Below, one piece after another: positions 1-33,972 of a DNA stretch of 37,205 nt; the stretch's first letter is position 1, and each line of letters begins with the position of its first letter. The DNA comes from a virus (taxonomy: Duplodnaviria; Heunggongvirae; Uroviricota; Caudoviricetes). The stretch is taken from IMG/VR virus record IMGVR_UViG_2687453522_000004. One strand, given 5' to 3'. The notes beneath the pieces were generated by a model. That model was given only the letters and a program-made list of their open reading frames with translations, did not search any database and was not told the DNA's origin. The translations under genes were made by a program, and so were the position numbers.

Positions 1-852
1 TTAAACACGAGGCATATAGGTCTGATTCCGATATTCAATTGGAGTCAGACCTTTTAATTTCAGGCTAATTCTTCTGCTGTTGTAGTATTCAATATATTCC
101 GTAACAGCATCCTTCAGTTCGCTTATATTACTGAACTCATCAAGATAAAAACACTCCGACTTTAAGGTTCCAAAGAAACACTCCACCACAGCATTATCCA
201 GACAATTGCCTTTTCTGGACATGCTTTGTTTAATACCATGTTCTTTAAGGATATTTTGATATCTTCTCATACGATACTGCCATCCCTGGTCAGAGTGCAG
301 AACAGGATGCTCGTGAGGATTAAGCTTTTTGAATGCCTGATCGAGCATATTCTCAACCATGTTCATCACTGGTCTTTCCGAAAGGCTGTAAGAAATAACT
401 TCGTTGTTGAAGAGATCTATTACTGGAGACAAATACAGCTTGCGCCCATTGACTGCAAATTCAGTAACATCGGTAACCCACTTCTCGTTTGGCCGCGTAG
501 CCTTGAAATCTCTTTGGAGAACATTAGGGGCGGTTTGCCCTACCTCTCCTCTGTAAGAGCGGTATCGCTTGACCTTAATCGCTGCTTTAAGTGAGAGGGT
601 TCCCATCAGGCGCTGAACAGCTTTATGGTTAATCTGTTTCCCTTCTCGATGAAGAGACAGCGTTACCCTACGGTATCCGTATCGGCCTCTATTCTCGTGA
701 TAAATCTCACTAATACGCTTTTTAACGTCCGCATACTTGTCAGGCTTGCTGAGAGCCTTTAGATGATAATAAAACGTACTGCGCGGTATCTCCGCAGCCC
801 TGAGAAGCTCATCAAGAGGATAAAACTGCCTTAGCTCGTTGAGTACTTTCAC
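1..852 (-). CDS. insK: IS150 OrfB (InsK-like, DDE integrase-core transposase); normally made as an OrfAB fusion by -1 frameshift
   Basis: 283-aa ORF in the -1 frame relative to OrfA, overlapping its 3' end; rve-type catalytic core; the stop codon is the first 3 nt of the window. Confidence 0.9.
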
Positions 853-1370
853 TTTTTCGTGGGATGAGCTAAGGCTTTCAGCTTTTTTAGATACATAAGC
901 CGCGTTTCAAGAAATCGAACTTGCCTTTCAAGATCCTCAATGCGTCGGTCTTTTGACAGCTCCAATGCTGATGCCGCTTTTTCTGGATCAACTGATATTG
1001 CAATGTTTCTTTTGGTGCCAATCTTGAGCGCGCGTAAACCAGCTTCTCCGCGCTCTTCATAGACCTTCAGCCACCTGGCTACAGAACCACTACCAGCAAG
1101 CATAAAGTGAGCAGCAGCCTGATTAAGGGACATGTGCTGCTCGATCACAGCTTTCACGACCTTAATACGCAACTCTGGATCAGCACTAACGCCTTTAGGT
1201 TTGGGAATTAAACCTTTTTCTCCATGTTTTTCATAGAGGGCAACCCATGTCCTGACCTGGGTTCGGGGGACACCAAAACGTGCCGAGATGATCCTGTAAC
1301 CATCATCAGTTGTGAAGTAGTGATTCACGACTTCAAGGCGCTTTTCAAAAGGGTATTTTGGCTTTGACAT
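849..1370 (-). CDS. insJ: IS150 OrfA (InsJ-like, HTH DNA-binding transposase subunit)
   Basis: 173-aa ORF starting MSKPKYPFEKRLEVVNHYF; HTH and leucine-zipper-like region typical of IS3-family OrfA. Confidence 0.9.
   Translation of the reverse strand: MSKPKYPFEKRLEVVNHYFTTDDGYRIISARFGVPRTQVRTWVALYEKHGEKGLIPKPKGVSADPELRIKVVKAVIEQHMSLNQAAAHFMLAGSGSVARWLKVYEERGEAGLRALKIGTKRNIAISVDPEKAASALELSKDRRIEDLERQVRFLETRLMYLKKLKALAHPTKK
882..888 (-). other. Programmed -1 ribosomal frameshift heptamer A AAA AAG (IS150 OrfA to OrfAB)
   Basis: On the minus strand, CTA AAA AAG is in the OrfA zero frame 11 codons before the OrfA stop; OrfB continues in the -1 frame. Confidence 0.8.
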
Positions 1371-8104: not shown

Positions 8105-8673
8105 CTATTTGTCCCGGTTGGCTAAGGGATGACACAATTTATTTTTTGTCACTGAGGCGGGGAATTTTTTATAGAGCGTGGACAGGCCAATATCAAAAAT
8201 CAGTGCCACGCGTTGACGTGATTCCCCTGCAGCCAGCAACCGCCCGGCCTGCTCCCACTCACTCGCGGTGAGTTTCGGACGTCTGCCACCAATACGACCT
8301 TTGGCTCTGGCCGCCTCCAGTCCGGCGCGTGTCCGCTCGACAATGAGTTCTCGCTCCATTTCAGCCAGGGCACCCATCACATGAAAGAAAAAACGCCCCA
8401 TCGGCGTGCTGGTATCAATGGCATCCGTCAGGCTGCGAAAATTAATGCCGCGTTCGCGCAGCTCCTCAACCAGAATGACCAGATGCCGCATACTACGCCC
8501 CAGCCGGTCCAGCTTCCAGACTACCAGAGTGTCACCTTCCGATAATGTTCTGAGCAGTTTTTTCAGCCCCGGCCTGTCGGACTTCGTGCCGCTGATTTTA
8601 TCCTCAAAAATCAGCTCACATCCTGCGCACTCCAGCGCGTTACGCTGCAATTCCGTGTTCTGGTCATTTGTTG
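8105..8673 (-). pseudogene. Serine DNA invertase (Pin/Gin/Hin/Cin family), C-terminal fragment separated from its start by an IS66-family insertion
   Basis: Translation ...LQRNALECAGCELIFEDKISGTKSDRPGLKKLL...GDTLVVWKLDRLGRS...MGRFFFHVMGALAEMERE... is resolvase/invertase-like with a C-terminal HTH. Reading upstream in frame runs into the IS end instead of the MLIGYVRVS N-terminus. Confidence 0.88.
8666..8673. repeat. Target-site duplication ATTTGTTG, left copy (IS66-family insertion)
   Basis: Exact 8-bp direct repeat also present at 11129..11136 directly flanking the IS ends. Confidence 0.85.
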
Positions 8674-8714
8674 GTAAGCGTGCAGCAAGAACCGTATTGA
8701 CGGGGATGTGTTAT

Positions 8715-10250
8715 TCAGTCGGCAGTGCTACGCGCCAGGGGGAGCAGTTCGCCGACCCGGTTTATCGGCCAGTCGGCTATGACGTCAAGGACATAGCGGA
8801 GGTAGCTTTCTGGCTCCACTCCGTTCAGTTTGCACGTCCCGATCAGGCTGTACAGCAGCGCTCCCCGCTCTCCTCCATGATCCGAACCGAAGAACAGGTA
8901 GTTTTTGCGGCCCAGACTGACCATCCGCAACGCATTTTCAGCGATGTTATTGTCCGCCTCAGCCCAGCCATCATCTGCATAGTACGTCAGCGCCGGCCAC
9001 TGGTTCAGGGCGTATGCGAACGCTTTCGCCAGTTCTGAGTGTCGCGACAGGGTTTTCATCTTTTCACGCAGCCAGCTTTCCAGGGATTTCAGCAGCGGTT
9101 TCGTTTTCAACTGACGTTCGGCAAGGCGCTGCTCCGCCGTCATTCCCCTTATCTCTGCCTCGATGGCGTACAGTTCGCCGATCCGTTTCAGCGCTTCCTC
9201 CGTCAGGGCTGACGGGGTGCGAACGTGCACATCGTGGATTTTACGGCGGGCGTGAGCCCAACAGGCGGCTTCCGTTATCCGGCCATCCCGGTACAGCTCG
9301 TTGAACCCGGCGTATGCATCCGCCTGCAGTACACCACTGAACCCCGCAAGATGGGTCTGCGGATGGATGCCTTTTCTGTCCGGGCTGTAAGCGAACCACA
9401 CCGCCGGCGCCAGCGTTGACCCGGCGTTACGGTCGTCACGAACGTAGGTCCATAACCGCCCGGTCTTCGTTTTCTTATTGCCTGGCAACAGCACCGGGAC
9501 AGGCGTGTCATCAGCATGGAGCTTACCGTCAGTCAGCACATAGTCCTGAAGCGCTTCTTCCAGCGGTGACAGTAGCCGGCAGCATGCATCCACCCAGCCC
9601 GACAGCAGTGAACGACTCAGCTCCACGCCCTGGCGGCCGTACATTTCAGACTGGCGGTACAGCGGGGTGTGCTCTGCATACTTTGAGATCAGCACGCGGG
9701 CCAGCAGCCCCGGTCCTGCGATACCCCGCTCGATGGGCCGTGAAGGCGCGGGGGCCTGCACGATGGCATCGCACTGAGTACAGGCATGCTTTTCACGTAC
9801 AGTCCGGATAACCCGGAAGGCGCTGCGCATCAGCTCCAGCTGTTCGGCGGCATCCTCACCCAGATAGCTCAGCGAGCCTCCACATTCCGGGCAGCATGAC
9901 GCTGCCGGCAGCAGCCGTTTTTCATCGCGGGGGAGTGATTCGGGGAACGGTTTGCGGGTGCGGGTTTGACGCAGCGGGCGCTGCACGGCCGGGTCGTCAA
10001 CCCGACCGGTAAGGGTATCACTTTCTTTCTGAAGTGCCTTCAGGTCAGCTTCCATCTGTGCGATACGACGGGAGACTTTTTCCGAGCGGCTGCCGAAGTT
10101 CATCCGGCGCAGCTTATCCAGCTGTGCCTGCAGATGGTCTATTTCGCGTTCACGCTCGTTCAGCTTTTCCTGCAGGGCACGGTTCAGCGCCTCCTGTTCG
10201 GCAAGGAGACGTTTCAGTGCATTGATATCGTCAGGAAGTGAGCTGCTCAT
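8715..10250 (-). CDS. tnpC: IS66-family transposase TnpC
   Basis: 511-aa ORF with N-terminal coiled coil/leucine zipper, CxxC zinc-finger motifs (CCPECGG...CTQCD) and a DDE-type core, typical of IS66 TnpC. Confidence 0.88.
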
Positions 10251-10298
10251 ACCGGGTATATTACCAGGCTCATTCAGCGTCGACCAGGATAAAGAGGC

Positions 10299-10646
10299 TT
10301 ACAACATAGTCAGGGACGTAAGCAGTCTTTTAGGCTGCCGCCAGTCGATACCTTCCAGCAGCATCGCCAGCTGTGCCGGTGTGAGGAACACTTTGCCATC
10401 CCGGGCTGACGGCCAGGCGAAGCGGCCGCGCTCCAGCCGTTTGGTCAGCAGACACAGTCCATCGCCGGTAGACCAGAGGAGCTTTACCTGACTGCCATTA
10501 CGCCCACGGAAGATAAAAACGTGACCTGACATCGGATCGTCTTTCAGCGTCGTCTGCACCTTTGCCGCCAGGCCGTTGAAGCCGTTTCTCATATCGGTGA
10601 TGCCAGCGACCAGCCAGATCTTTGTCCCTGATGGTAATGGGATCAA
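10299..10646 (-). CDS. tnpB: IS66-family TnpB (Orf2)
   Basis: 115-aa ORF MIPLPSGTKIWLVAGITDMRNGFNGLAAKV..., typical IS66 Orf2. Confidence 0.85.
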   Translation of the reverse strand: MIPLPSGTKIWLVAGITDMRNGFNGLAAKVQTTLKDDPMSGHVFIFRGRNGSQVKLLWSTGDGLCLLTKRLERGRFAWPSARDGKVFLTPAQLAMLLEGIDWRQPKRLLTSLTML

Positions 10647-11047
10647 CGTTTGAGCTCCCGTATCAGCAGGTTCAGGATATTTTCGCTGATGGCACCATTC
10701 AGACGGAGTGATCCGTGCCGGAACGTCACTTCACAGCTGATATTGAGTGATTCAGGTGTCGCAGCAGCTACAGGTTGTGACCGGGGGGAGGTTGTAGGGA
10801 CAACATCTTCGGCATCAAGTGTTATCGGGAGCAGCTCAGGCACGTTGTTTTCTGTTGTTGAAGGAGGACGTAGTTTTCCTTCGCGCCAGTACTGGCGCCA
10901 CTTGAACAGCAAATTATCGTTGATCCCATGCTCACGAGCGAGTTGCGCTACGGAGATCTCTGGTCGATGCGAGAGTTCAACCATTTTGATTTTGAACTCA
11001 ACGGGATAATTAGGGCTTTTTTTACGCACTGCGGTTAATGATTTCAT
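10643..11047 (-). CDS. tnpA: IS66-family TnpA (HTH accessory protein)
   Basis: 134-aa ORF, first gene of the IS66 triad, overlapping tnpB. Confidence 0.8.
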   Translation of the reverse strand: MKSLTAVRKKSPNYPVEFKIKMVELSHRPEISVAQLAREHGINDNLLFKWRQYWREGKLRPPSTTENNVPELLPITLDAEDVVPTTSPRSQPVAAATPESLNISCEVTFRHGSLRLNGAISENILNLLIRELKR

Positions 11048-11128
11048 GGATTGCGTCCACCATATTTGGTGTCCACTATTCTCTCAGGAATTTCAGGATC
11101 TGCCAGACGGTGCTGAGACGACGCTTAC

Positions 11129-11136
11129 ATTTGTTG
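11129..11136. repeat. Target-site duplication ATTTGTTG, right copy (IS66-family insertion)
   Basis: Exact 8-bp direct repeat of 8666..8673. Confidence 0.85.
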
Positions 11137-11161
11137 ACACGCGTACATAGCCAATAAGCAT
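11129..11161 (-). pseudogene. Serine DNA invertase, N-terminal fragment (MLIGYVRVSTN) with Shine-Dalgarno GGGGG, cut off by the IS66-family insertion
   Basis: On the minus strand, ATG CTT ATT GGC TAT GTA CGC GTG TCA ACA AAT then runs into the IS terminal repeat. Joining it to 8665..8105 restores a 197-codon invertase. Confidence 0.85.
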
Positions 11162-11188: not shown

Positions 11189-11704
11189 ATGATGCCACTT
11201 GCCCGTTATCTCTGCATTTTCATAAACGTTGGTTTGGGAGAAGGCTCTGTATTACCCGTTGGTGTGCCTGTTCCGTGGCCTTCAGCCACACTGCCAACAG
11301 GCTGGCTGAAATGCAACGGGGCGGCATTTTCTGCTGAAGAATACCCGGAACTGGCAAAGGCTTACCCGACAAATATATTGCCTGATTTACGTGGTGAATT
11401 TATTCGTGGCTGGGATGACGGGCGCGGAGTGGACAGTAGCCGGACGTTGTTGTCGTGGCAAAAAGGCTCTTATCTGGTTCAGGAAGCCAATATATCACCC
11501 GACAGCGTGGTGCAGTTTTCGGTAAACGACATTGCCCTGCTGGGATGGGATAAAACTGAAACCAATTCAGATATTCTCAGAGCGAAAAGTATACCTACAG
11601 AACATATCTGGAACCCCGTTCCAGTGGGAGCCTGGGGGATTCAGTATCTGGGTTATGCAAGGCCACGTAACATTGCATTTAACTACATCGTAAGGGCTGC
11701 ATGA
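11189..11704 (+). CDS. Alternative tail-fibre C-terminal segment (Sv'-like), currently not joined to the constant part; would fuse to H after inversion
   Basis: The open frame passes through the crossover site, encoding ...FINVGLGEGSVLPVGVPVPWPSATLPTGWLKCNGAAFSAEEYPELAKAYP..., a remembered Mu/P1-type fibre tip motif. There is no convincing independent start or promoter. A dedicated assembly gene follows. Confidence 0.7.
   Translation: MMPLARYLCIFINVGLGEGSVLPVGVPVPWPSATLPTGWLKCNGAAFSAEEYPELAKAYPTNILPDLRGEFIRGWDDGRGVDSSRTLLSWQKGSYLVQEANISPDSVVQFSVNDIALLGWDKTETNSDILRAKSIPTEHIWNPVPVGAWGIQYLGYARPRNIAFNYIVRAA
11219..11244 (+). repeat. Putative invertase crossover site (gix/hix/pix-like 26-bp imperfect palindrome) bounding the invertible tail-fibre segment on the invertase side
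   Basis: TTTTCATAAACGTTGGTTTGGGAGAA resembles the remembered Hin/Gin consensus TTnnnnnAAACC-NN-GGTTTnnnnnAA. Its 14 inner bases TTGGTTTGGGAGAA are identical in inverted orientation to the site at 13168..13193. Confidence 0.7.
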
Positions 11705-12321
11705 TGAGCAAGAAAACCATGACTACAGCGGTGCTGAATGAATCGCGGCTGGCAACAGTTGCAGGAGAGGTTGTTGTCCACAGCTACGATAATAAGACGC
11801 GGGAATACCTTTGCACGTCAACCGAATATCTGGCTGTGGGCGTTGGCCTTCCTGCACATTCATGCACTGATGCCCCCGGGGAAAGGCGGGCTGGTTATGC
11901 AATTTGCCGCACAGCCGACCTGACCGCGTGGGAGTACGTGCCGGACCATCGGGGTGAGACAGTCTATAACACAGAAACCCGTGAGGCAGCAGAAATCACC
12001 ACTCCGGGGGATTACCCTGAAAACACAACCACTGTCGCCCCGTTAACGCCATACGATGAATGGGATGGTGAGAAATGGGTGACAGATACTGAGGCACAGC
12101 ATAGCGCCGCAGTAGGCGCGGCAGAAACACAGCGACAGTCACTGATTGATACTGCAATGGCTTCCATTAATCTGATTCAACTGAAATTGCAGGCCGGGCG
12201 AAAACTGACGCAGACAGAAACCACCCGGCTTAACGTCGTGCTGGATTACATTGACGCGGTGACGGTAACTGATACCAGCACCGCGCCGGATATCAATTGG
12301 CCTGCTCCCCCGGAGGCGTAG
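11701..12321 (+). CDS. Tail fibre assembly protein (U'-like) paired with the alternative fibre segment
   Basis: 206 aa; start overlaps the Sv' stop (ATGA); converges on and overlaps the other assembly gene by 29 bp. Confidence 0.75.
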   Translation: MMSKKTMTTAVLNESRLATVAGEVVVHSYDNKTREYLCTSTEYLAVGVGLPAHSCTDAPGERRAGYAICRTADLTAWEYVPDHRGETVYNTETREAAEITTPGDYPENTTTVAPLTPYDEWDGEKWVTDTEAQHSAAVGAAETQRQSLIDTAMASINLIQLKLQAGRKLTQTETTRLNVVLDYIDAVTVTDTSTAPDINWPAPPEA

Positions 12322-12739
12322 GCCAGACGGGATTTGATGTATCAACGCGCATCAGTAAGACCCGATATTTTTTCCATTCAGACAACGCGGCGGTTTCTTC
12401 TGCCGTCGCGATTTCCGCATCAAAAGCATCCTGTCTCCAGACTATTTCCTTATCAGCCATTGAACGCAATACCGTTCTTTTCTGTTCAGCCTGAATAATC
12501 TGTTGTTCAGCGGAGAGTGGCGGGATATCAATCCATGCAGGATTACCATTTTTATCAGCCCCCAGCGTTTTGCCTTCTGGCGCTACGCCTGTGTAAATTG
12601 CTATTGTTTCATCATCAACATCAACGCCATTTTCAGGCCATGAACCGGCGCTGATATATACCTCTTTTAGTGCTTTCGGATAGAAAGAGCCTTTATAAAA
12701 TTTATTCATTCTTAATACCCCAGCGCGATAAAACAACAA
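12293..12739 (-). CDS. Tail fibre assembly protein (P2 G / Mu U-like) for the currently expressed fibre variant
   Basis: 148-aa ORF immediately downstream of the fibre gene; C-terminus ...SEWKKYRVLLMRVDTSNPVWPTPP resembles the conserved assembly-chaperone C-terminus. Confidence 0.8.
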   Translation of the reverse strand: MLFYRAGVLRMNKFYKGSFYPKALKEVYISAGSWPENGVDVDDETIAIYTGVAPEGKTLGADKNGNPAWIDIPPLSAEQQIIQAEQKRTVLRSMADKEIVWRQDAFDAEIATAEETAALSEWKKYRVLLMRVDTSNPVWPTPPGEQAN

Positions 12740-14007
12740 TCTTCGGTGCCCTCTCCGGATGGCGACCAGTTCTGAATACTGATATGCGTTCTGCTGGCAA
12801 TACGCACATTCATCGCGGCATTGTAGCCAGATGTTCCACGGTTTCCGGTCGCAAACAAGCCTGCATAGGGAAAAGCAAATGGTAAGGCATATCCAGCATC
12901 AGCTCCCTTTTGTGTTGCCACCGTTCCCCACTGCAACATAAGTTTCACCGGGTTTCCTGTCGTCGCAATGCATGGAATGTAGATGTAGCCATTACCTGAC
13001 ATCATTGACCTGAAGCTGTCTAAATCCAGTAACTTCGAGGCATTATCTGCTCCAACATCTCGTGTTGCAGCGGTCCCTAACTGGAGCGCATTTCGGAAGG
13101 CTGATACATCAGAAATATCAGATCCATTAGCCGATTTCTGCATAGCTCTGGAGGCTCTATTTATCGTTTCTCCCAAACCAAGGTATGCGAGAAGGCCGGC
13201 AACATCCTTTCCGCTCAAATGAGTCAGCGTCTCATCCAGTGGCTGCTTACCTGACAGCGCATTGTTAATAGTGGTGCTGAATTTCGGGTCATTGTTAATG
13301 GCTGCGGCAATTTCTTTCAGTGTGTCCAGCGTGGCTGGCGCGCCGTTAATCAGAGCGGTAATAGCGGCCTGAACAAACTCAGTGGTCGCAATCCGCGTGG
13401 TGTTATTTCCTGCGGCAGGCGTCGGGGCTTTTGGTTCTCCGGTAAATGTCGGATTATGTTTCTGTGCATACTGGGTATGAGGATCCTGTGCGGCAATGTG
13501 GTTTCTCATCTGGTCATCCACATACAGCCTTAATTCCAGGACTTCATCATCCACATATTTACGGGTCGCCAGTACCACCGACGGGTCGATTTTCAGCGTG
13601 ATGGCTTCGATATTCGTGACAACCAGAATCATGCGGATAGTCTGGGTACGACCACTGCCTTCCTGTAACTGCGGTTTGTACGTTTCCGGGCAGTTGGCCA
13701 CCGCAATGAGTACGCCTTCATCATCATAAAGCCCAATCTCACGGATCCAGAATCCGCCCTCGTTCTCAGGGATGATTTGCTCCGCAATAATCTGGCTCTG
13801 GTTGTTCGGGTCAACACTCAGAAGATTCAGCGGTGCAATGCGTTTCTGATTAATCAGTTTTGTCTGTGCCGGGTCTGGTGTCGGCAAGACACCATTCGCA
13901 TCACCAACGGCCATTTGCGTCAGATTCAGCTTACTGCCAAGCATCGTCGCGTTAGCCAGCCGTGCTGCGCCCTGATTAGTCAGAATGGCGTAGTATTTCA
14001 CTGTCAT
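12712..14007 (-). CDS. H: Tail fibre protein (gpH-like): constant N-terminal part 13194..14007 plus variable C-terminal part 12712..13167 inside the invertible segment
   Basis: 431 aa; N-terminus aligns with remembered P2 H motifs (MAVGD, GGFWxRExGLYDD, LIAVAN, EGSGR, YVDD, NDPxFxTTxNALxGKQP). Confidence 0.9.
   Translation of the reverse strand: MTVKYYAILTNQGAARLANATMLGSKLNLTQMAVGDANGVLPTPDPAQTKLINQKRIAPLNLLSVDPNNQSQIIAEQIIPENEGGFWIREIGLYDDEGVLIAVANCPETYKPQLQEGSGRTQTIRMILVVTNIEAITLKIDPSVVLATRKYVDDEVLELRLYVDDQMRNHIAAQDPHTQYAQKHNPTFTGEPKAPTPAAGNNTTRIATTEFVQAAITALINGAPATLDTLKEIAAAINNDPKFSTTINNALSGKQPLDETLTHLSGKDVAGLLAYLGLGETINRASRAMQKSANGSDISDVSAFRNALQLGTAATRDVGADNASKLLDLDSFRSMMSGNGYIYIPCIATTGNPVKLMLQWGTVATQKGADAGYALPFAFPYAGLFATGNRGTSGYNAAMNVRIASRTHISIQNWSPSGEGTEDCCFIALGY
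13168..13193 (-). repeat. Putative invertase crossover site inside the tail-fibre gene at the constant/variable junction
   Basis: Plus strand TTCTCCCAAACCAAGGTATGCGAGAA; its reverse complement shares 14/14 inner bases with the site at 11219..11244; it encodes the fibre motif AYLGLGE. Confidence 0.7.
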
Positions 14008-26118: not shown

Positions 26119-28602
26119 ATGTCTGGTTTTTTCCTTGATTTAACCAAGCTTTCGCCCAGTGTAAATAGCGACACAGCGATTCCACCGCGAGATATATTTA
26201 CAGCTCTACCGAGCAAAGACACCAAATTTCAATACCCTCGAGATGTGCAATCAGAGGTCTGGGAAAAATGGTATGAAGCAAGGAGAAGCCCAACCAATGT
26301 AATAAAAATGAATACCGGAAGCGGTAAAACTTCAGTTGGGTTAATCATTCTTAAAAGCTGTATAAATGAAGGAGAAGGTCCCGCTGTATATGTTGTTCCT
26401 GACAACTATCTAGTTGAGCAAGTGGTTTTGGAGGCTAATCAACTTGGTATACCTGTAACTCAAGATGAGAGGTCCCCCAAATTTATTGCAGGTAAAGAAA
26501 TTTTAGTTACAAATATATTCAAAGTGGTTAATGGACGTTCTGCATTTGGCGTTGGAGATGATGGACAAAGAATACCAATAGGTTCTATAATAATTGACGA
26601 TGCTCACGCTTGCCTTTCTTCAATTGAAGAACAATTCTCCATTAGCATTCAAAAAAACAACCCTGCCTATGATAAATTATTCAGAATTTTTGAAAATTCA
26701 CTAATGACACAAGCTGGTGCAAAAACACTAGAGATAAAATCCGGCGATAGAAATGCTTATGTGAGAGTTCCATTTTGGAAATGGCAAGAAAGCATAAATG
26801 ATATAATGACAATCTTGTTAGAAAATAAAGACCATGATGACTTGAGTTTCAAATGGCCATTAATAAAAGACAATCTAATATTATCGAAATGCGTTGTAAG
26901 TGCTTCCAAAATAGAGATATCACCTCATTGCATACCAATCCAAATGATCCCAAGCCTATCAAACGCAAGAAGAAAAATATTCATGACAGCTACTCTTGTC
27001 GATGAATCCATTCTAGCGAGCCACTTCGGAATAACGGATGAATCACTCTCTAATCCGATAACACCAAAAACAATTGGTGATATTGGTGATAGAATGATAC
27101 TAATGCCTCAGGTTATAAACCCTAGTCTTTCTGATGTAGATATCAAAGCTATGTGCAAGGAGATATCCTCCAAACATAATGTTGTTGTAATTGTACCATC
27201 CGATTACAGAACTAGATTTTGGCAAGATGTTGCAGACAGAATATTAGATAAAAATACAATTTATCAAGGTGTACAAGAATTAAGGACACAACATGTTGGC
27301 TTAGTAGTCCTAGTTAATAGATATGATGGTATTGATTTACCAAATACCGCATGTCGTCTATTAGTAATAGATGGACTTCCTGACGTTCGTAGACTAATAG
27401 ATAAAGTCTCACAAAGCTTATTGCTTGGAAGCGAAAAAACCAAAGATGAAATTATCCAGAAAATTGAACAAGGAATGGGGCGAGGAGTGAGATCAAGCGA
27501 CGACTTCTGCGGAGTGATCTTACTTGGCAAAGCATTAAATGGCGCTGTTTTCCTTGGCTCCTCCTTAGAAAGGTTTTCTCCAGCAACGAAAGCACAAATT
27601 CAACTTTCACAGCAATTGGTATCGATACTGCCGGATACAACTATTGATTCAATCAAAGGTGCTCTTGATTATTGTCTGTTACGCAATTCTGACTGGGTCT
27701 CAAAAAGCAAAGGTATATTGACTGGCTTAACATTGGAAAATAAGCAGATTGACCAGCATACTATAAATAAAAGATTGGCATATGACTTAGCATCACGAAA
27801 TATGTTTCAACAAGCCGCTTTAACTCTAAAAAATGATAGTAGTACAGCTGACAAAGTTTATAAGGGTTATCTAAAAGAACATGCTGCGGAATATGTAAAC
27901 TTATATGACAAATCTGAAGCTCAGATATTGCTTCAGTCTGCATCAAACGATAACTATCGGGTATTAAAACCACTAATCGGCGTAACATATAATAGACTTA
28001 ATGGTGCGGCACTTGAACAGGCCAGGGAATGTAGCTCCTATCTCAGAAGTAATTTTGAATCGGCCAATCAAGTCGTTGTGCATACTAATTCAATAATAGA
28101 AAACCTTATTTTCTCCGAGGGCACATCGAATCCCTTCGAAGATGCTATCGAAAAAGTTGCATATTTGGTCGGTTTTCGTAGCCAACGGCCAGAAAATGAT
28201 ACAGGTAAAGGACCTGACAATTTATGGGCAATGGGAGAAAACAATTATCTAGTAATTGAATGCAAAAATGGAGCAACCGCAGAAAGAATAAGTAAGCATG
28301 ACTGCAATCAGTTAAATGGGTCGGGTGCATGGTTCAGAAACATGTATGATCAAACTGCTACCGCCACACCTATAATGATACATCACTCTAATATGCCTGA
28401 ATATGCCGCAACACTAAACGAAGGGTCTCGAATAATGACCATAAATGATCTTGAACGTTTTAAAGCATCTATCCTCAGTTTTATCACGGCCATTTGTACA
28501 AGTGATAAACGACACGATGAGATATTTATAAGAGAACAATTGATCACATGTAAATTACGTGCATCAGACATAGTTGAAACCTATACGCGAAACCCTCGTT
28601 AA
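26119..28602 (+). CDS. Low-GC cargo gene: 827-aa SF2 (DEAH/ResIII-like) helicase fused to a C-terminal PD-(D/E)xK nuclease; candidate single-gene anti-phage defence protein
   Basis: Uninterrupted ORF with AAGAGG Shine-Dalgarno. Helicase motifs: MNTGSGKT (Walker A), VVPDNY, IIIDDAHAC (motif II), FMTATL (motif III), QGMGRGVR (motif VI). C-terminal ...GPDNLWAMGENNYLVIECK... gives a D ... E-x-K pattern. Codon usage is AT-rich, unlike the flanking phage genes. Confidence 0.6.
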   Translation: MSGFFLDLTKLSPSVNSDTAIPPRDIFTALPSKDTKFQYPRDVQSEVWEKWYEARRSPTNVIKMNTGSGKTSVGLIILKSCINEGEGPAVYVVPDNYLVEQVVLEANQLGIPVTQDERSPKFIAGKEILVTNIFKVVNGRSAFGVGDDGQRIPIGSIIIDDAHACLSSIEEQFSISIQKNNPAYDKLFRIFENSLMTQAGAKTLEIKSGDRNAYVRVPFWKWQESINDIMTILLENKDHDDLSFKWPLIKDNLILSKCVVSASKIEISPHCIPIQMIPSLSNARRKIFMTATLVDESILASHFGITDESLSNPITPKTIGDIGDRMILMPQVINPSLSDVDIKAMCKEISSKHNVVVIVPSDYRTRFWQDVADRILDKNTIYQGVQELRTQHVGLVVLVNRYDGIDLPNTACRLLVIDGLPDVRRLIDKVSQSLLLGSEKTKDEIIQKIEQGMGRGVRSSDDFCGVILLGKALNGAVFLGSSLERFSPATKAQIQLSQQLVSILPDTTIDSIKGALDYCLLRNSDWVSKSKGILTGLTLENKQIDQHTINKRLAYDLASRNMFQQAALTLKNDSSTADKVYKGYLKEHAAEYVNLYDKSEAQILLQSASNDNYRVLKPLIGVTYNRLNGAALEQARECSSYLRSNFESANQVVVHTNSIIENLIFSEGTSNPFEDAIEKVAYLVGFRSQRPENDTGKGPDNLWAMGENNYLVIECKNGATAERISKHDCNQLNGSGAWFRNMYDQTATATPIMIHHSNMPEYAATLNEGSRIMTINDLERFKASILSFITAICTSDKRHDEIFIREQLITCKLRASDIVETYTRNPR

Positions 28603-28841: not shown

Positions 28842-29834
28842 TTACTCTGAATAACCAGAAAACCCACTCCACTCATCTACACTAGGATATGAAAATTGCT
28901 TTTCATTGTAATTGACGATCGCACCGCGTACTAACGCCTCAAGCTCCCATCGCTGCGGCCTGATACCGTTTTGAGCAAGGTCAACACGGATACGGGTGAT
29001 TTGCAATCGTTCAGACCGGGTCAGTCTGGCCGATGGTGCAATTTCATGTGGTTTTAACGGGCTTCCGTTTCTTTGCTGACGACCTGGCGTTCTCCGACCG
29101 TGTTTTAATGCACCCCTGAGCGCCCTCACGACCTCCGGGTCATTCCATTCGATAACACCGTCATCAACCAGATTTAGCACTGCTGCGGCGTGCTCAGAAG
29201 GTGTGGGAGCCGGTAACGAAGTATCACCACCGGTGAGCTTTCCACAGTTATTGACAGGACTCCGAGGCGCGGCGATGCCGCTTTTTAAAGTCAAAGGCTC
29301 AACGACCGGAACTTTCGGCACAATGCGCCAGTCCGTCGTTCTGGTGATATGAATATGACGCGCGCCGAGATGCGGCGCGTAAATGCCGACCACTCTCTCG
29401 ACTTCTTCCTCGTACTCGTTAACGTCATCCGACAGACTACGGGCGACCCTGACAGTCTGACAATCGCGCGGGACATTTGCCCCGCCCTGCGCGCTGATAT
29501 ACAGCGCAAAATCACCACTGTCTGCGGCGGCGCGTGCAGCCTCGACGCGCTCGTCAAACTCATCAGCAATGCTGACGCCGCGAGGCAATTTGCGTAGTTC
29601 ACGGTAAGCCCCCATTGTCGGCAGGCCAACCGTTTTAAATTGCGGAATGCGCCACGTTGACGCCCATGCGGTAACAGCCGCTGCAGTGTCTTTCAGCGGC
29701 CTGCCGGTGTCGTTATCGAGCTGACCATCCAGTGCATAGCCGTCGATGTTTTTTGAAATGTATTTCGCGATATATCCCGCAGCACCGCCCCGGTTAAGGT
29801 GTTTTGCCTGAAAACGGTTTCGCGCGGCTCCTCT
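28842..29834 (-). pseudogene. A: Replication initiation protein gpA-like, C-terminal fragment (about 330 codons) cut off from the N-terminal part by an IS21-family insertion
   Basis: Reading upstream from the ORF start at 29615 stays open and P2 A-like (...RGAARNRFQAKHLNRGGAAGYIAKYISKNIDGYALDG...) up to the IS boundary at 29835. Confidence 0.85.
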
Positions 29835-29919: not shown

Positions 29920-30669
29920 TCACTGATCTCCTTCGGTCAACGGAGATTGTATTTTCCGCATTGATTCTCCTTTAAGTTCGATCTTGATACTGCCATGAAC
30001 CAGTCGATCTAGGATGGCATCCGCATGTGTGGAGTCTCCGATCATTTTGTACCAGTTTTCCACCGGCAACTGGCTCACTACGATGATTGAGCCTCGTTGG
30101 TACATCAGATCCACTATTTCCAGCAGGTCGCTACGCTGTTCTGATGAGAGAGGTTCCAGCCCCCAGTCATCCAGAAGCAGCAGATCGCTATTATTCAGCC
30201 TGGTCAAAAGTTTGCTGTATCTTCCATCAGCATGCCCCTGATAGCACTGTTCCATCAGCGCTTTAAGGCGATAATAGTAGACCTTGTATCCCTGTCGGCA
30301 GGCATTATGACCAAGTGCACATGCCAGGAACGTTTTACCGCTGCCGGTGGCCCCGGTCAGTAAAATATTTTGTTTCAGGGTTAACCAGTTTCCCTGACTG
30401 AGTGAACGGATGAGGGCCCTGTCCAGCCCTCTATTGTTACGATAATCCAGCTTTGATAACTCAGCATTAAGTCTGAACCGTGCATGTTTGATCAGACGCT
30501 CTGCCTTCCTGTTTTCACGGCAGGTTAGTTCTTCTGCTGTCAGTAATGACAGGCGTTCTTCGAAGCCCAGCTCCTGGTATGTGCCCGGTTGAGCAAGTTG
30601 CTTTTTAAGCGCATCACGGAAGCCGGTGAGTTTAAGTGCGGTCAGTTGTTCGTAAAGATGATTCATCAT
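29920..30669 (-). CDS. istB: IS21-family ATP-binding helper IstB
   Basis: 249 aa with Walker A (GATGSGKT) and Walker B (LLLLDDWG) motifs, DnaC-like. Confidence 0.88.
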   Translation of the reverse strand: MMNHLYEQLTALKLTGFRDALKKQLAQPGTYQELGFEERLSLLTAEELTCRENRKAERLIKHARFRLNAELSKLDYRNNRGLDRALIRSLSQGNWLTLKQNILLTGATGSGKTFLACALGHNACRQGYKVYYYRLKALMEQCYQGHADGRYSKLLTRLNNSDLLLLDDWGLEPLSSEQRSDLLEIVDLMYQRGSIIVVSQLPVENWYKMIGDSTHADAILDRLVHGSIKIELKGESMRKIQSPLTEGDQ

Positions 30670-30680
30670 TGGATCCCGTA

Positions 30681-32222
30681 TCAGTGGTAATACTCACTGC
30701 CGCGTACGTTTTCGTGTTCCATCGTGGATAACAGATCTGGTTTTGGATCCTGAACAGGTTGTTTATCCAGACCTTTTTCCAGGATCGATTTAATACCTGA
30801 CAGACGCCATACCTTTGTTTCCAGAGCTCTTGCACATGCTGCATTAAGTCTGGCTTTACTGTATTTTTTATGAAGGTTCAGGAGTCCAAGGCAGAAGCGA
30901 TAGCTTTGTTCCGGATGTGGACGAGAGTTCAGTATATGAAGCACATAACTATGAGTTTCACTGCCTATGTGCCCCGCCCATTCCAGAAGACGCTCTGGCG
31001 TCCAGGTGGCATGCTGTCGATGAGCTTCAGGCATGTGCTCGTTGCGGGTACTGTAGCCATAAGTACGCTTGCGCGGGTGCACAGCAACCTCCTGCCCCTG
31101 ATTGAAGAGTCTTACCAGTTCTCCGGAGATCCATGCTTCCAGTTGCTGGCCTAACAGCGAACATGGAACCGAGTAGTAATGTTTGTCGATTTCCACGTGG
31201 TAATCGGCATGAACTCTGACTTTCTTCACCAGGGTGTAACTGTAACTGGCTTCAGGAAGAGGCTTCAGTGCGGGTTTATCAAGCTGGATGAAGAGTTCTG
31301 CACGTGAATAACCCAACTTCTGCATTATTTTGTTATTCAGTCTTTCCAGCAACTCCCGAATGCGCTGATTAAGCGATGCAAGGCTGTAGAAGATCTCATG
31401 CCTGATTCGGGCCATGATCCAGCGTTCAACAACCTGAACGCCAACTTCAGCTTTGGCTTTATCTTTCGGTTTACGTGGCCGCGCAGGCAAAACTGCGACA
31501 TTATAATGCTCAAGCATCTGCTGGTAGGTAGGGTTAACGTCAGGATCATACTTACATGCCCTGGATGTGGCGCTTTTCAGATTGTCCGGAACAACAAGTT
31601 CAGGAACGCCACCCAACCACTGGAAGCAGCGAACATGACTCATCACCCAGTCTTCAAGCTGCTGAGACCAGGTGGCCTCTGCCCATGTGTAACTTGATGC
31701 CCCGAGAACAGCTACGATGACCTGAGCAGTTCTTATTTCTCCGGTCTCAGGGTCGGTAACGCCAACGGTAGGTCCACAGTAATCAACGAAAAGTTTTTCG
31801 CCAGCTTTATGTACCTGACGCATTGATGGTGAAGTGGTTTTGAGCCATTCACGGTACATCCGGCAGTAATGGTTATAGCTGTAAAAACCGCCTGGATTAC
31901 GCTCACAGTATTCTTCCCAGAGTAGCTGCAGCGTCACGCATTTATTACGCAGTTCCCGGTGTACTGTAGCCCAGTCAGGCAGAGAGTGCTTCTTCATCTT
32001 AACCTGGGTCTGAAGGAACGCATGTTTTAGTTTTGTATCATCCCATCCTGTAGGTAAGGGCCACTGCTTTATGCCAAGTTGAGCCGCCCGATTAGCATAT
32101 CTGGATACAACGGAAGGGGAGATTGCAAGACTACGACCAATTTGTCGATGGCTGAGTCCAACACCGTATTTAAGCCTAAGAATTTCTTTAAGTTTTCTCA
32201 TAGAAATTGGAACTGTTGGCAT
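30681..32222 (-). CDS. istA: IS21-family transposase IstA
   Basis: 513-aa ORF with N-terminal HTH and DDE core, upstream of and nearly abutting istB. Confidence 0.85.
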   Translation of the reverse strand: MPTVPISMRKLKEILRLKYGVGLSHRQIGRSLAISPSVVSRYANRAAQLGIKQWPLPTGWDDTKLKHAFLQTQVKMKKHSLPDWATVHRELRNKCVTLQLLWEEYCERNPGGFYSYNHYCRMYREWLKTTSPSMRQVHKAGEKLFVDYCGPTVGVTDPETGEIRTAQVIVAVLGASSYTWAEATWSQQLEDWVMSHVRCFQWLGGVPELVVPDNLKSATSRACKYDPDVNPTYQQMLEHYNVAVLPARPRKPKDKAKAEVGVQVVERWIMARIRHEIFYSLASLNQRIRELLERLNNKIMQKLGYSRAELFIQLDKPALKPLPEASYSYTLVKKVRVHADYHVEIDKHYYSVPCSLLGQQLEAWISGELVRLFNQGQEVAVHPRKRTYGYSTRNEHMPEAHRQHATWTPERLLEWAGHIGSETHSYVLHILNSRPHPEQSYRFCLGLLNLHKKYSKARLNAACARALETKVWRLSGIKSILEKGLDKQPVQDPKPDLLSTMEHENVRGSEYYH

Positions 32223-32415
32223 AGGTATCCTTTACCGGAATGGCAAAAGATACAGATCAACACACCTGTGAAGTTCCAATAACATTGATGGAGATCACTG
32301 AATAACAAAATGAGTCAAAAGTGATCTCCATCGATGTTATTCAGCGATCTGTTCAAATGTTATTACCCGATCTCGATGGAAGTTATTGAGTGATCTCCTT
32401 TCATGAAAATACGCA

Positions 32416-33707
32416 CCTCTTTCGTCGCCATCCTCTTTGAGCGCATAGCGACGCATGATTTCGATAATCTGGTTACGCTGGCGTGGATGACAAAAAAGCA
32501 TCATATGCCAGTGCGGCGTTCCGTCGTGGTGTGGCTCGACGACTCGCAAACCGTAGACCTGTAAATCATTATCCTTGAATGCCGTGCGCATCAGGCTCCA
32601 GATACGGCAGAGATAACGCTGCGCATCCTTTGGATTAAATGCCTCATCGTTCCAGCCGTGATTAAGCTGAACGGTTTTACTTTCGCCTTTTCCGACCTGA
32701 CGTGTCGGGTGATACTTTGACGGCGCGGTCAGCGTGATAAACATCCCCACATCACCCTCTGCGGCGGCGTAACGCTCAATACCGGCAATGGTGTTCATCA
32801 GCTCCATCCGGCGAATTTCAGGATTAGAAATACTGCCCATCACCTTACTGATAAGGTCGATGCGCTCGCCGGTTTCCCTGTTTTCAAGGTCACACGATTT
32901 AAGAAATTCCAGATTTGCCTGGCGGCGCGCACGCACATCACGAATGGCGTGTTTACTGGCATAAGGAGAACGGTCTTTATTGACCTCCCCGACAGCTATC
33001 AGTAACGCCTCATGCCAGCGCATACGCTGGCCTTTAAGCTGATGAGTCCACCACTCATCGTTAAACAGGCGGGCAATGGCAGAATATGCCTGCCTCGTGG
33101 TCATCTGTCCTTTACGGTATTTTTTCCAGTAGAGCGGGGAAATATTGAAAGCACGTGCAGCGCCAGCAACATGACCATACAGGTGAGCCTGCGCCTCATC
33201 CGTAAACAGCGATTCTTTTTCACCATGCGCATCAACCCATGCATCGCAGAGTTCCTCATACATCATGAAAAGCTGCGATGAGATACGGGCGGCAAACTTT
33301 TTCAGCTCCTTGTCATTCATTCCCGGCAGGCGCGCATAGTGGTCACGCTCTGCCAGAAACAGCAACGACGCGTCGGTGTTCATTTCATGGCGCTGATTCA
33401 CACGCTCAATGCGCGGCCATAAACGACGCTGAAAAGTAGATGTGAGGAAATAAAACCCGTGCACCGGGCTTTTATTGCGCCGGATGTAGTCATAGCGTGA
33501 AGTAAACAGCGAGCGCAAAAAGTAAGGCAGGCGGTTAATCGTGGATAAAACACCTTGCACCTGACGCATCTCGTCACGTGTAAGAGGTCTTTCGCGCCCG
33601 ACAGCCTCGCGTGGCGCGTTCCATGCATAAGCACCGGTAAACGCCTTACCGGTGCCTGCGGTAAATGCTGACGGAGGGACAAAACGCCCGGAGGCTTTAA
33701 CGGCCAT
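32416..33707 (-). pseudogene. A: Replication initiation protein gpA-like, N-terminal fragment (about 430 codons); the frame runs into the IS and stops at 32337
   Basis: Start MAVKASGRFVPPSAF (the ORF track extends to 33749); the P2 A-like sequence ends ...EDGDERGA at the IS junction, then reads IS-derived residues. Confidence 0.85.
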
Positions 33708-33972
33708 ATGAGCCAAAAGCCTCTGAACAACGCTTGCTGAGTTGCTCAACCTGCGCGTTTAAATCAGCAAAAGATTTTGCGCTTCCGGTCAGAATATCGT
33801 GATGCATCAGGCCGGAAACGAGCTGGCCTAATTTCGGGTAATAACCAACCACCGCCAGCCATTCCTGACCGGCGTTTTTACCGCTTTCCGCTCTCTTTTT
33901 CTCGTGGAGAATAAACTGAAAGCTGTCACTGGTAACGACATAACGTTCGCCAATTTCAATACGAATACTCAT
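33697..33972 (-). CDS. Small early-region hypothetical protein (P2 orf83-like position)
   Basis: 91-aa ORF immediately upstream of A, overlapping its start. Confidence 0.6.
   Translation of the reverse strand: MSIRIEIGERYVVTSDSFQFILHEKKRAESGKNAGQEWLAVVGYYPKLGQLVSGLMHHDILTGSAKSFADLNAQVEQLSKRCSEAFGSYGR

What the first reader, a model, noticed from the sequence alone, without database searches (positions are those of the whole stretch)
11219..13193. Invertible tail-fibre segment (Mu G / P1 C / e14 P-type) in a P2-like prophage
Two 26-bp sites in inverted orientation (11219..11244 and 13168..13193) bracket about 1.97 kb holding two alternative fibre C-termini and two convergent assembly genes that overlap by 29 bp. 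One site lies inside the fibre gene at the constant/variable junction (encoding AYLGLGE). The other lies at the start of the silent alternative segment, which reads through the same GLGE motif. Inversion would swap the fibre tip and its chaperone and so switch host range. In P2 itself this position holds G and Z/fun, so the whole fibre module has been replaced.
Basis: partly seen in the sequence, partly recalled or inferred. Interest (0 to 1): 0.6.

Follow-up and report, generated by a model that had tools for sequence, protein, structure and literature searches.

The report
Prophage tail-fibre switch with broken invertase
This is a real example of a well-known DNA flip-switch that lets a P2-like E. 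coli prophage alternate between two tail-fibre tips, but an insertion sequence has cut its flipping enzyme gene in two, so this copy is an ordinary, almost frozen relic.

Summary
Two 26-bp sites in inverted orientation (11217-11242 and 13168-13193) bracket two alternative fibre tips and two convergent assembly-chaperone genes.

- **Sites:** the invertase-proximal site is 26/26 identical to the e14 pix site next to pinE. Both sites are identical to those of phage pro483.
- **Reading frame:** in-silico inversion gives an in-frame 433-aa fibre followed by the second chaperone gene.
- **Natural flip:** the exact predicted flipped sequence occurs in public E. coli genomes.
- **How common:** this is a Pin/Gin/Cin/Hin-type switch in a P2-like prophage. 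That arrangement is published, and the junction occurs in 948 of 5,426 complete E. coli genomes.

The catalytic serine is separated from the rest of the protein, and the insertion lies in the predicted Fis enhancer. The prophage is also defective, because its replication gene is split by ISEc12.

Among genomes with this same IS insertion, 78 have the window's orientation and 3 are flipped. No intact invertase was found in one flipped genome. The switch is therefore essentially locked but has flipped at least once since the insertion. Interest is low and the kind is known.

The parts
13168..13193 (.). Distal crossover site (pix-like), inside fibre gene H at the constant/variable junction. The + strand reads TTCTCCCAAACC AA GGTATGCGAGAA; the central dinucleotide is at 13180-13181.
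   Evidence: Identical to the site in pro483. Compare P1 cixR TTCTCTTAAACCAAGGTATTGGATAA.
11217..11242 (.). Invertase-proximal crossover site (pix-like). The - strand reads TTCTCCCAAACC AA CGTTTATGAAAA; the central dinucleotide is at 11229-11230.
   Evidence: 26/26 identical to the e14 pix site next to pinE (L007 4606-4631) and to the pro483 site.
11229..13181 (.). Invertible segment, from one crossover centre to the other. It holds tip B, tfa-2, tfa-1 and tip A.
   Evidence: In-silico inversion reproduces EJN001 with 0 mismatches over 12,879 nt.
13168..14007 (-). Constant part of tail-fibre gene H (aa 1-280, ending ...LAYLGLGE), outside the invertible segment.
   Evidence: Pfam PF12571, 5.8e-62. 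98.9% aa identity to pro483 H, 66% to Fels-2 H and 42% to P2 H.
12712..13167 (-). Tip A, the fibre C-terminus currently expressed (H aa 281-431 plus stop).
   Evidence: Pfam Gp53-like_C, 1.1e-07; ORF.
12293..12709 (-). tfa-1, the tail-fibre assembly chaperone paired with tip A (138 aa).
   Evidence: Pfam Caudo_TAP, 9.7e-32.
11701..12321 (+). tfa-2, the chaperone paired with tip B. It is silent in this orientation. PGAP starts it at 11719.
   Evidence: Pfam Caudo_TAP, 2.6e-31. 76% aa identity to e14 TfaE.
11243..11704 (+). Tip B, the silent alternative fibre C-terminus (153 aa after GLGE). The open frame starts at 11189.
   Evidence: Pfam Collar PF07484, 2.7e-14. In frame with H 1-280 after inversion. 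55% aa identity to e14 StfE.
11129..11161 (-). 5' stub of the invertase gene: codons 1-11, MLIGYVRVSTN, including the catalytic-serine motif.
8674..11128 (-). ISEc22 (IS66 family), 2,455 bp, inserted in the invertase gene. It carries tnpA 11047-10643, tnpB 10646-10299 and tnpC 10250-8715. Its ends read GTAAGCG..., and the 8-bp duplication CAACAAAT lies at 11136-11129 and 8673-8666.
   Evidence: The empty site is seen in strain 720632.
8105..8665 (-). 3' remnant of the invertase gene (codons 12-197 plus stop), lacking the catalytic serine.
   Evidence: Pfam Resolvase 4.8e-44 (profile positions 19-144 only) and HTH_7 4.4e-13. The rejoined gene is 100% aa identical to the intact invertase of 720632.
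8609..8665 (-). Larger part of the predicted recombinational (Fis) enhancer, gene nt 34-90. The remaining part (nt 19-33) lies at 11143-11129 on the other side of the IS.
   Evidence: Inferred by position from the enhancer annotated at nt 19-90 of P1 cin and the alignment of gene 5' ends. Candidate Fis cores lie at nt 22-36 and 71-85. The IS duplication covers nt 26-33.

Best explanation
This is a Pin-type (Hin/Gin/Cin/Pin 'Din' family) invertible tail-fibre switch in a P2-like (Peduovirus) prophage of an E. coli lineage with many clinical and carbapenem-resistant isolates.

**Design.** The constant 280 residues of fibre protein H are encoded outside the segment. Recombination at the central dinucleotide of two 26-bp sites flips 1.95 kb. 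H is then completed by either tip A with chaperone tfa-1 (the state in this window) or by the Collar-domain tip B with chaperone tfa-2.

**State of this copy.** The cognate serine invertase gene is split after codon 11 by ISEc22. The insertion removes the catalytic serine from the rest of the protein and lands inside the predicted proximal Fis site of the enhancer. The prophage also cannot replicate, because gene A is split by ISEc12. The switch is therefore essentially locked in the tip-A orientation. It can flip only rarely, and only if an invertase is supplied in trans. At least one such flip has happened since the IS insertion.

**Shown:** the sites, the reading frames, the IS disruption, and the natural occurrence of both orientations.
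**Inferred:** the Fis sites, the dependence on a trans-acting enzyme, and the consequence for host range.
For: **Sites and anatomy.** Searches give the sites and their identity to e14 pix and pro483, and their similarity to cix and gix. Searches give the genes and domains. One search gives the in-frame 433-aa fibre after inversion.

**Invertase.** When the IS and one copy of the duplication are removed, the gene is an uninterrupted 197-aa protein. It is 100% identical to the intact invertase of 720632, 87.5% to PinE, 85.9% to Fin, 79.6% to Cin and 77.7% to Gin.

**IS insertion.** It has an 8-bp duplication, and the empty site is seen in 720632.

**Enhancer position.** P1 annotates its enhancer at nt 19-90 of cin. 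The proximal candidate Fis site lies 96.5 bp from the pix centre, matching the roughly 100 bp reported for hin (PMC3798978).

**Both orientations in nature.**
- With an intact invertase: strain 600055 has the window orientation (100% over the 314-nt junction query, same layout). Strain 720632 is flipped (99.9%).
- With the same IS insertion: 78 genomes have the window orientation and 3 are flipped. EJN001 has 0 mismatches to the in-silico flipped window over 12,879 nt.

**Context.** The P2-like setting and defects are shown. Invertible fibre segments in P2-like prophages are shown experimentally in PMC4272514. Cross-action of invertases on pix sites is shown in PMC12529663.
Against: - No experiment or read-level data are available for this strain, so a minority flipped subpopulation cannot be excluded.
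- The three flipped genomes show that 'locked' is not absolute.
- In the flipped genome EJN001 I found no intact invertase that could have acted, so the trans-acting step is unproven.
- The rest of this window's own host genome was not seen. Some genomes of the lineage have 3-4 invertase-like loci.
- The Fis sites are assigned by homology and consensus only.
Confidence: 0.85

Rival explanations
1. The switch is still operating at a useful rate in this strain. Another resident serine invertase from a different prophage or plasmid acts in trans on the pix sites.
For: - Din invertases are interchangeable, and even PinQ/PinR (38% identical to PinE) invert a segment flanked by the same TTGGTTTGGGAGAAGG repeats (PMC12529663).
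- Flipped genomes exist within the IS-bearing lineage.
- Some lineage genomes have 3-4 invertase-like loci.
- Near-identical invertase genes occur on plasmids.
Against: - The 78:3 orientation ratio in the IS-bearing lineage is what rare events would give, not a free-running switch.
- Most lineage chromosomes have only the split gene and the pinH fragment, and adding a pinQ probe leaves the counts unchanged.
- The IS lies in the predicted enhancer. Reactions without Fis run below 0.001 inversions per molecule per minute for Hin (PMC3798978).
Confidence: 0.12
2. The flips seen in EJN001, EBJ001 and 11899A were not made by a foreign invertase. They were made by leftover cognate invertase protein in the first generations after the IS hit, so the two orientations were frozen at the base of the clade.
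For: - No resident invertase was found in EJN001.
- EJN001 and EBJ001 look like sister isolates, with identical coordinates.
Against: - This needs the flipped genomes to branch at the very root of the IS-bearing clade, which was not tested.
- The same insertion damaged the enhancer.
- If the 11899A result is real, it would need the same basal position.
Confidence: 0.1
3. The flipped copies arose without site-specific recombination, by rare short-homology or template-switch recombination between the 14-bp identical inverted cores, or they are assembly artefacts.
For: - Any crossover within the shared 14 bp (TTGGTTTGGGAGAA) gives the same product, so the exact crossover point cannot be read from the sequence.
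- The 11899A_LBHALD assembly is visibly scrambled around the prophage.
Against: - 14 bp is far below the length needed for efficient homologous recombination.
- The repeats are bona fide invertase sites.
- A 26-bp repeat is shorter than any sequencing read, so orientation is not ambiguous in assembly. EJN001 and EBJ001 are clean.
Confidence: 0.04
4. The inverted repeat is a chance feature and the segment is not an inversion switch.
For: None beyond the imperfect 21/26 match between the two sites.
Against: The sites are identical to e14 pix and to the pro483 sites. A Din-family invertase gene lies adjacent. The frame is preserved after inversion. Both orientations exist in nature.
Confidence: 0.01

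Closest known systems
e14 P segment with PinE (E. coli K-12 cryptic prophage e14)
   Same: - The invertase-proximal site is 26/26 identical.
- The invertase is 87.5% aa identical.
- The layout is the same: fibre constant part, tip, tfa, then convergent tfa, tip and invertase.
- Module B is related: StfE 55% and TfaE 76% aa identity.
- Segment size is similar: 1,797 bp in e14 (PMC12529663) and 1,951 bp here.
   Different: - e14 is a lambdoid remnant integrated at icd. Here the host element is a P2-like myovirus prophage between fieF and cpxP.
- Tip A and tfa-1 are unrelated to StfP/TfaP at the level tested.
- The invertase here is split by ISEc22.
P2-like phages and prophages with an invertase: Escherichia phage pro483, the two P2-like prophages of EPEC E2348/69, and strains 720632 and 600055
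   Same: - Both crossover sites are identical to those of pro483.
- The invertase is 96.4% and the H constant part 98.9% aa identical to pro483.
- Gene order is the same: V W J I H, tfa, tfa', tip', invertase, FI.
- Inversion in the P2-like prophages of EPEC was shown by sequencing (PMC4272514).
- 720632 and 600055 carry the same prophage with an intact invertase, one in each orientation.
   Different: - pro483 has a different active tip (H is 399 aa).
- The window's copy has the IS-split invertase and a split replication gene.
Fels-2 prophage of Salmonella LT2 with the Fin invertase
   Same: - It is a P2-like prophage with H, G, G', H' and the invertase placed between the fibre genes and FI.
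- Its sites, TTCGCCTAAACCGAGGTATGTGAGAA and TTCGCCTAAACCGAGGTTTATGAAAA, have the same form.
- Fin is 85.9% identical.
- Fin acts in trans on the H segment (Kutsukake 2006, as cited).
   Different: Different genus (Felsduovirus). The H constant part is only 66% identical. The central dinucleotide differs (GA rather than AA).
Mu G segment with Gin, and P1 C segment with Cin
   Same: Same mechanism and logic: 26-bp gix/cix sites, an invertase with the enhancer in its 5' coding region, and alternative S/U and S'/U' modules.
   Different: The segments are larger (3 and 4.2 kb). There is no nucleotide similarity between the tips. Invertase identity is 78-80%. In Mu and P1 the invertase lies beside the variable end in unrelated phage backbones.

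Membership tests
Din-family (Hin/Gin/Cin/Pin) DNA inversion system | An adjacent small serine recombinase with an N-terminal Resolvase catalytic domain (catalytic Ser in the YVRVST motif) and a C-terminal HTH_7 domain. | tested here: not met
   As it stands the gene is broken. Codons 1-11, with the serine motif, lie at 11161-11129. Codons 12-197 lie at 8665-8105. ISEc22 (2,455 bp) plus its 8-bp duplication lies between them. The rejoined gene meets the feature fully: it is 100% identical to the intact invertase of 720632 and 87.5% to PinE. The locus is therefore a member by descent with an inactivated recombinase.
Din-family (Hin/Gin/Cin/Pin) DNA inversion system | Two 26-bp imperfectly dyad-symmetric crossover sites in inverted orientation, with matching central dinucleotides. 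| tested here: met
   The sites are 11217-11242 and 13168-13193, with central dinucleotides TT and AA on the + strand. The proximal site is 26/26 identical to e14 pix. Both align with cix, gix and the Fels-2 sites.
Din-family (Hin/Gin/Cin/Pin) DNA inversion system | A recombinational enhancer with two Fis sites in cis, typically in the 5' coding region of the invertase gene. | tested here: inconclusive
   The homologous region (gene nt 19-90, as annotated for P1 cin) is conserved. It has candidate Fis cores at nt 22-36 and 71-85. The first lies 96.5 bp from the pix centre. The IS duplication (nt 26-33) falls inside the first core, so the enhancer is split. Fis binding was not tested.
Din-family (Hin/Gin/Cin/Pin) DNA inversion system | The segment actually inverts, with crossover inside the sites. 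| tested here: met
   The in-silico product of crossover at the central dinucleotide is found at 100.0% in EJN001, EBJ001 and 11899A, and at 99.9% in 720632. The unflipped form with an intact invertase is found in 600055. The crossover can be placed only within the shared 14 bp.
Din-family (Hin/Gin/Cin/Pin) DNA inversion system | Dependence on Fis, negative supercoiling and subunit-rotation strand exchange. | not testable with these tools
   This is biochemical. It is known for Hin and Gin (PMC3798978).
Invertible tail-fibre module (Mu G / P1 C / e14 P type) | A constant fibre N-terminus outside the segment, fused in frame to either of two C-termini, each followed by its own assembly chaperone. 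| tested here: met
   H 1-280 plus tip A gives 431 aa, and H 1-280 plus tip B gives 433 aa. Each is followed directly by a Caudo_TAP gene.
P2-like phage (Peduoviridae, Peduovirus) | P2 late-gene order (V W J I H ... FI FII E T U D ogr) and close similarity of structural proteins to P2. | tested here: met
   The annotation of the identical M217 region shows the P2 gene order. FI is 98.5% and I 82% aa identical to P2. Pfam finds Tail_P2_I and Phage_GPA.
IS66 family insertion sequence (ISEc22) | Three ORFs (tnpA, tnpB, tnpC with DDE_Tnp_IS66), terminal inverted repeats starting GTAAGCG, and an 8-bp target duplication. | tested here: met
   Pfam hits. Ends and the CAACAAAT duplication. RefSeq names it ISEc22 and marks tnpC as frameshifted.

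The most novel reading that the evidence does not exclude
The segment flipped in a lineage whose cognate invertase is destroyed and whose enhancer is split, and in genomes (EJN001, EBJ001) with no recognisable Pin/Gin/Cin-type or PinQ/R-type gene. This could mean that an unrecognised host or mobile-element recombinase, or an enhancer-independent route, acts on pix sites. Orphan invertible fibre segments in cryptic prophages would then remain switchable by enzymes not yet linked to them.
Probability: 0.1. Interest if true: 0.5.

Novelty: already known. Interest (0 to 1): 0.25.

Why it matters
As a discovery it matters little. Invertible tail-fibre switches of this family have long been textbook material, and they have been shown in P2-like prophages.

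It has three practical uses.
1. **Annotation.** RefSeq calls the split invertase an intact 200-aa 'recombinase family protein', which hides the disruption.
2. **Lineage marker.** The ISEc22 junction together with the segment orientation is a clean marker for a clinically important E. coli lineage. One matching record is a strain named ST167, and one flipped genome carries an NDM-5 plasmid.
3. **A small natural experiment.** The 78:3 orientation split, with no resident invertase found in a flipped genome, shows how often an orphaned inversion switch still flips.

Tried and rejected
**Search for the enzyme that flipped the segment in EJN001.**
- e14 is absent: icd is followed directly by iraM.
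- Rac appears absent, judged from the coordinate offset between icd and nifJ.
- Qin is absent: ydfJ is intact and followed by rspB.
- The lambdoid prophage at potB/potC carries no invertase.
- The only plasmid in the assembly, IncX3 pNDM5, has only a 220-aa resolvase-like recombinase.
- The second invertase-like chromosomal locus seen in every lineage genome by sensitive blastn disappears with megablast. In EJN001 it is the 168-nt pinH pseudogene fragment.
- Adding a pinQ probe did not raise the counts.

**Other points.**
- Tips compared with Mu and P1: no nucleotide similarity and no significant protein similarity, so the 'Mu/P1 fibre variant' lead was dropped.
- A third crossover site, which would allow multiple inversions as in EPEC or p15B: none was found in the window.
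- The plasmid search with the invertase protein showed only that close homologues are widespread.
- Literature searches for EJN001 and pro483 gave nothing useful. Kutsukake 2006 is not held.
- 11899A_LBHALD was downgraded as evidence because the assembly around the prophage is scrambled.
Full report
**What is in the sequence.**
The late genes of a P2-like prophage run right to left. V, W, J and I are followed by fibre gene H (14007-12712, 431 aa). H has the P2-type N-terminal fibre domain PF12571 and a Gp53-like C-terminus. After H come:
- tfa-1 (12709-12293), a Caudo_TAP chaperone gene;
- tfa-2 (11701-12321, + strand), a convergent second chaperone gene that overlaps tfa-1 by 29 bp;
- an ORF on the + strand (11189-11704) with a phage Collar domain.

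An inverted repeat brackets these genes. The best 26-bp register is 11217-11242 against 13168-13193, with 21/26 identical. The shared 14-mer TTCTCCCAAACCAA occurs exactly twice in the window, once per strand.

**Are the sites real crossover sites?**
I extracted the annotated cixL and cixR of P1, the G-segment boundaries of Mu, and the corresponding sites of e14, Fels-2 and pro483.
- The invertase-proximal site (TTCTCCCAAACCAACGTTTATGAAAA) is 26/26 identical to the e14 site next to pinE and to the pro483 site.
- The distal site (TTCTCCCAAACCAAGGTATGCGAGAA) is identical to the distal pro483 site. It resembles P1 cixR (TTCTCTTAAACCAAGGTATTGGATAA).
- The central dinucleotides (TT and AA on the + strand) are in inverted orientation, as inversion requires.

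In-silico recombination at the central dinucleotide gives an in-frame 433-aa fibre. It shares H residues 1-280 (ending LAYLGLGE), continues into the Collar tip, and is followed directly by tfa-2.

**The missing piece: the invertase is broken.**
- Downstream of the silent tip, on the - strand, lies ATG CTT ATT GGC TAT GTA CGC GTG TCA ACA AAT (MLIGYVRVSTN, 11161-11129). It is followed at once by GTAAGCG..., the end of an IS66-family element.
- The element spans 8674-11128 (2,455 bp) and carries tnpA, tnpB and tnpC. RefSeq names it ISEc22.
- It is flanked by an 8-bp duplication, CAACAAAT.
- Beyond it the invertase frame continues (8665-8105). Pfam matches the Resolvase domain only from profile position 19, plus HTH_7.
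- Removing the IS and one copy of the duplication restores a 197-aa protein. It is 100% identical to the intact invertase of strain 720632, 96.4% to pro483, 87.5% to PinE, 85.9% to Fin, 79.6% to Cin and 77.7% to Gin.
- Strain 720632 shows the empty site.

The catalytic serine is therefore separated from the rest of the enzyme.

The P1 record annotates the recombinational enhancer at nt 19-90 of cin. In the aligned gene here, candidate Fis cores lie at nt 22-36 and 71-85. The first is 96.5 bp from the pix centre, which matches the roughly 100 bp reported for hin (PMC3798978). The IS duplication covers nt 26-33, inside the first core. By inference the enhancer is split as well.

**Context.**
- The window differs by 1 nt in 37,205 from E. 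coli M217.
- The prophage sits between fieF and cpxP.
- It is P2-like: FI is 98.5% and I 82% identical to P2, and the H constant part is 42% identical to the P2 H N-terminus.
- P2 itself has H, G, fun(Z) and FI at this position.
- It is defective: replication gene A is split by ISEc12, and an IS150 sits next to ogr.

**Does it flip in nature?**
- The window-orientation 2.9-kb region occurs at 100% identity in many complete genomes.
- The in-silico flipped version occurs at 100.0% in EJN001, EBJ001 and 11899A_LBHALD, and at 99.9% in 720632.
- 720632 has the intact invertase. Strain 600055 has the same intact invertase protein with the window orientation. With a working enzyme, both states are therefore seen.
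- EJN001 carries the same ISEc22 insertion. It has 0 mismatches to the flipped window over 12,879 nt.
- Junction-specific queries count 78 genomes with the IS and the window orientation, and 3 with the IS and the flipped orientation.
- One of the three, 11899A_LBHALD, is a scrambled assembly and counts for less.

A single IS insertion cannot arise in both orientations. The segment has therefore flipped at least once after its own invertase was destroyed, and it does so rarely.

**Who flipped it?** I could not find the enzyme.
- EJN001 lacks e14 and Qin. Rac appears absent too, judged only from coordinate arithmetic.
- Its only other invertase-like chromosomal locus is the pinH pseudogene fragment.
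- A pinQ probe finds nothing more.
- Its IncX3 plasmid has only a resolvase-like gene.

These were nucleotide-level searches with two probes, so a divergent serine recombinase could have been missed. Cross-action is well established. PinE, PinQ and PinR all invert the e14 segment, which is flanked by the same TTGGTTTGGGAGAAGG repeats. Fin acts on the Salmonella H segment, and PinE acts on the Mu G segment (PMC12529663). The likeliest sources are an element since lost (e14 is absent from EJN001 and, from my own knowledge, is known to excise), a superinfecting phage or plasmid, or residual invertase protein just after the IS hit. I cannot choose between them.

**Comparison with what is known.**
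- The architecture is that of the e14 P segment and of P2-like phages such as pro483 and Fels-2.
- Inversion in two P2-like prophages of EPEC E2348/69 was shown by sequencing, one of them with three repeats and three alternative C-termini (PMC4272514).
- The invertase-pix-Collar-tip junction is present in 948 of 5,426 complete E. coli genomes.
- The tips are not Mu- or P1-like. Module B is e14-like (StfE 55%, TfaE 76%). Tip A has no close relative among the phage, e14 and Qin fibre proteins compared.

**Verdict.**
The finding is correct and ordinary: a known kind of switch, common in E. coli. This copy is disabled by an IS in a defective prophage. The only mildly surprising point is that it has still flipped in a few clone-mates with no visible invertase.

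Noticed in passing
window 29920-32222, with gene A fragments at 28842-29615 and 32337-33749: An IS21-family element (ISEc12, istA and istB) splits the P2 replication endonuclease gene A. The prophage should therefore be unable to replicate.
   Followed up: partly
window 1-1370: An IS150 (IS3 family, two ORFs with a programmed frameshift) lies directly next to ogr at the prophage's late-gene end. It is the third IS in this one prophage.
   Followed up: partly
window 26119-28602 (+): An 827-aa DEAD/DEAH helicase-like protein lies in the P2 cargo position next to the portal gene. It matches the PADLOC candidate defence family PDC-S28 along its whole length (1,054 bits).
   Followed up: partly
window 8105-8707 (-); L001 1977-2579: RefSeq/PGAP annotates the IS-split invertase as an intact 200-aa 'recombinase family protein' (WP_062914736.1). 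Its N-terminus is read out of the IS end from a non-standard start, which hides the loss of the catalytic serine.
   Followed up: yes
L022 (phage P2 H, aa 379-390): P2's own non-invertible H protein contains EYLGLQETVNRA. This closely resembles the AYLGLGETINRA encoded across the crossover site here, and looks like a relic of an ancestral inversion site.
   Followed up: no
L011 and L012 (E. coli 11899A_LBHALD, NZ_CP130447.1): In this assembly the fibre module and the invertase remnant of the same prophage lie about 1 Mb apart. They are flanked by fragments of IS elements, tRNA genes and partial 23S rRNA. This is either IS-mediated rearrangement or misassembly.
   Followed up: partly
EJN001, EBJ001 and 11899A chromosomes (one search compared): Each of the three flipped genomes shows one extra megablast match to the 2.9-kb fibre query that M217 lacks. 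The location was not found in the regions fetched.
   Followed up: partly
L019 34902-35069 (EJN001); L018 18066-18305 (K-12 pinH): The pinH invertase pseudogene fragment between ypjA and ypjB is present in EJN001 as well as in K-12. It probably explains why sensitive blastn finds a second 'invertase-like' locus in most E. coli genomes (median 2 per genome).
   Followed up: yes
L013/L014 (EJN001 1,799,604-1,845,250): A lambdoid prophage is inserted between potC and potB. Its side tail-fibre region is disrupted by IS fragments and a group II intron (ltrA). It also carries iss and a second iraM-like gene.
   Followed up: no
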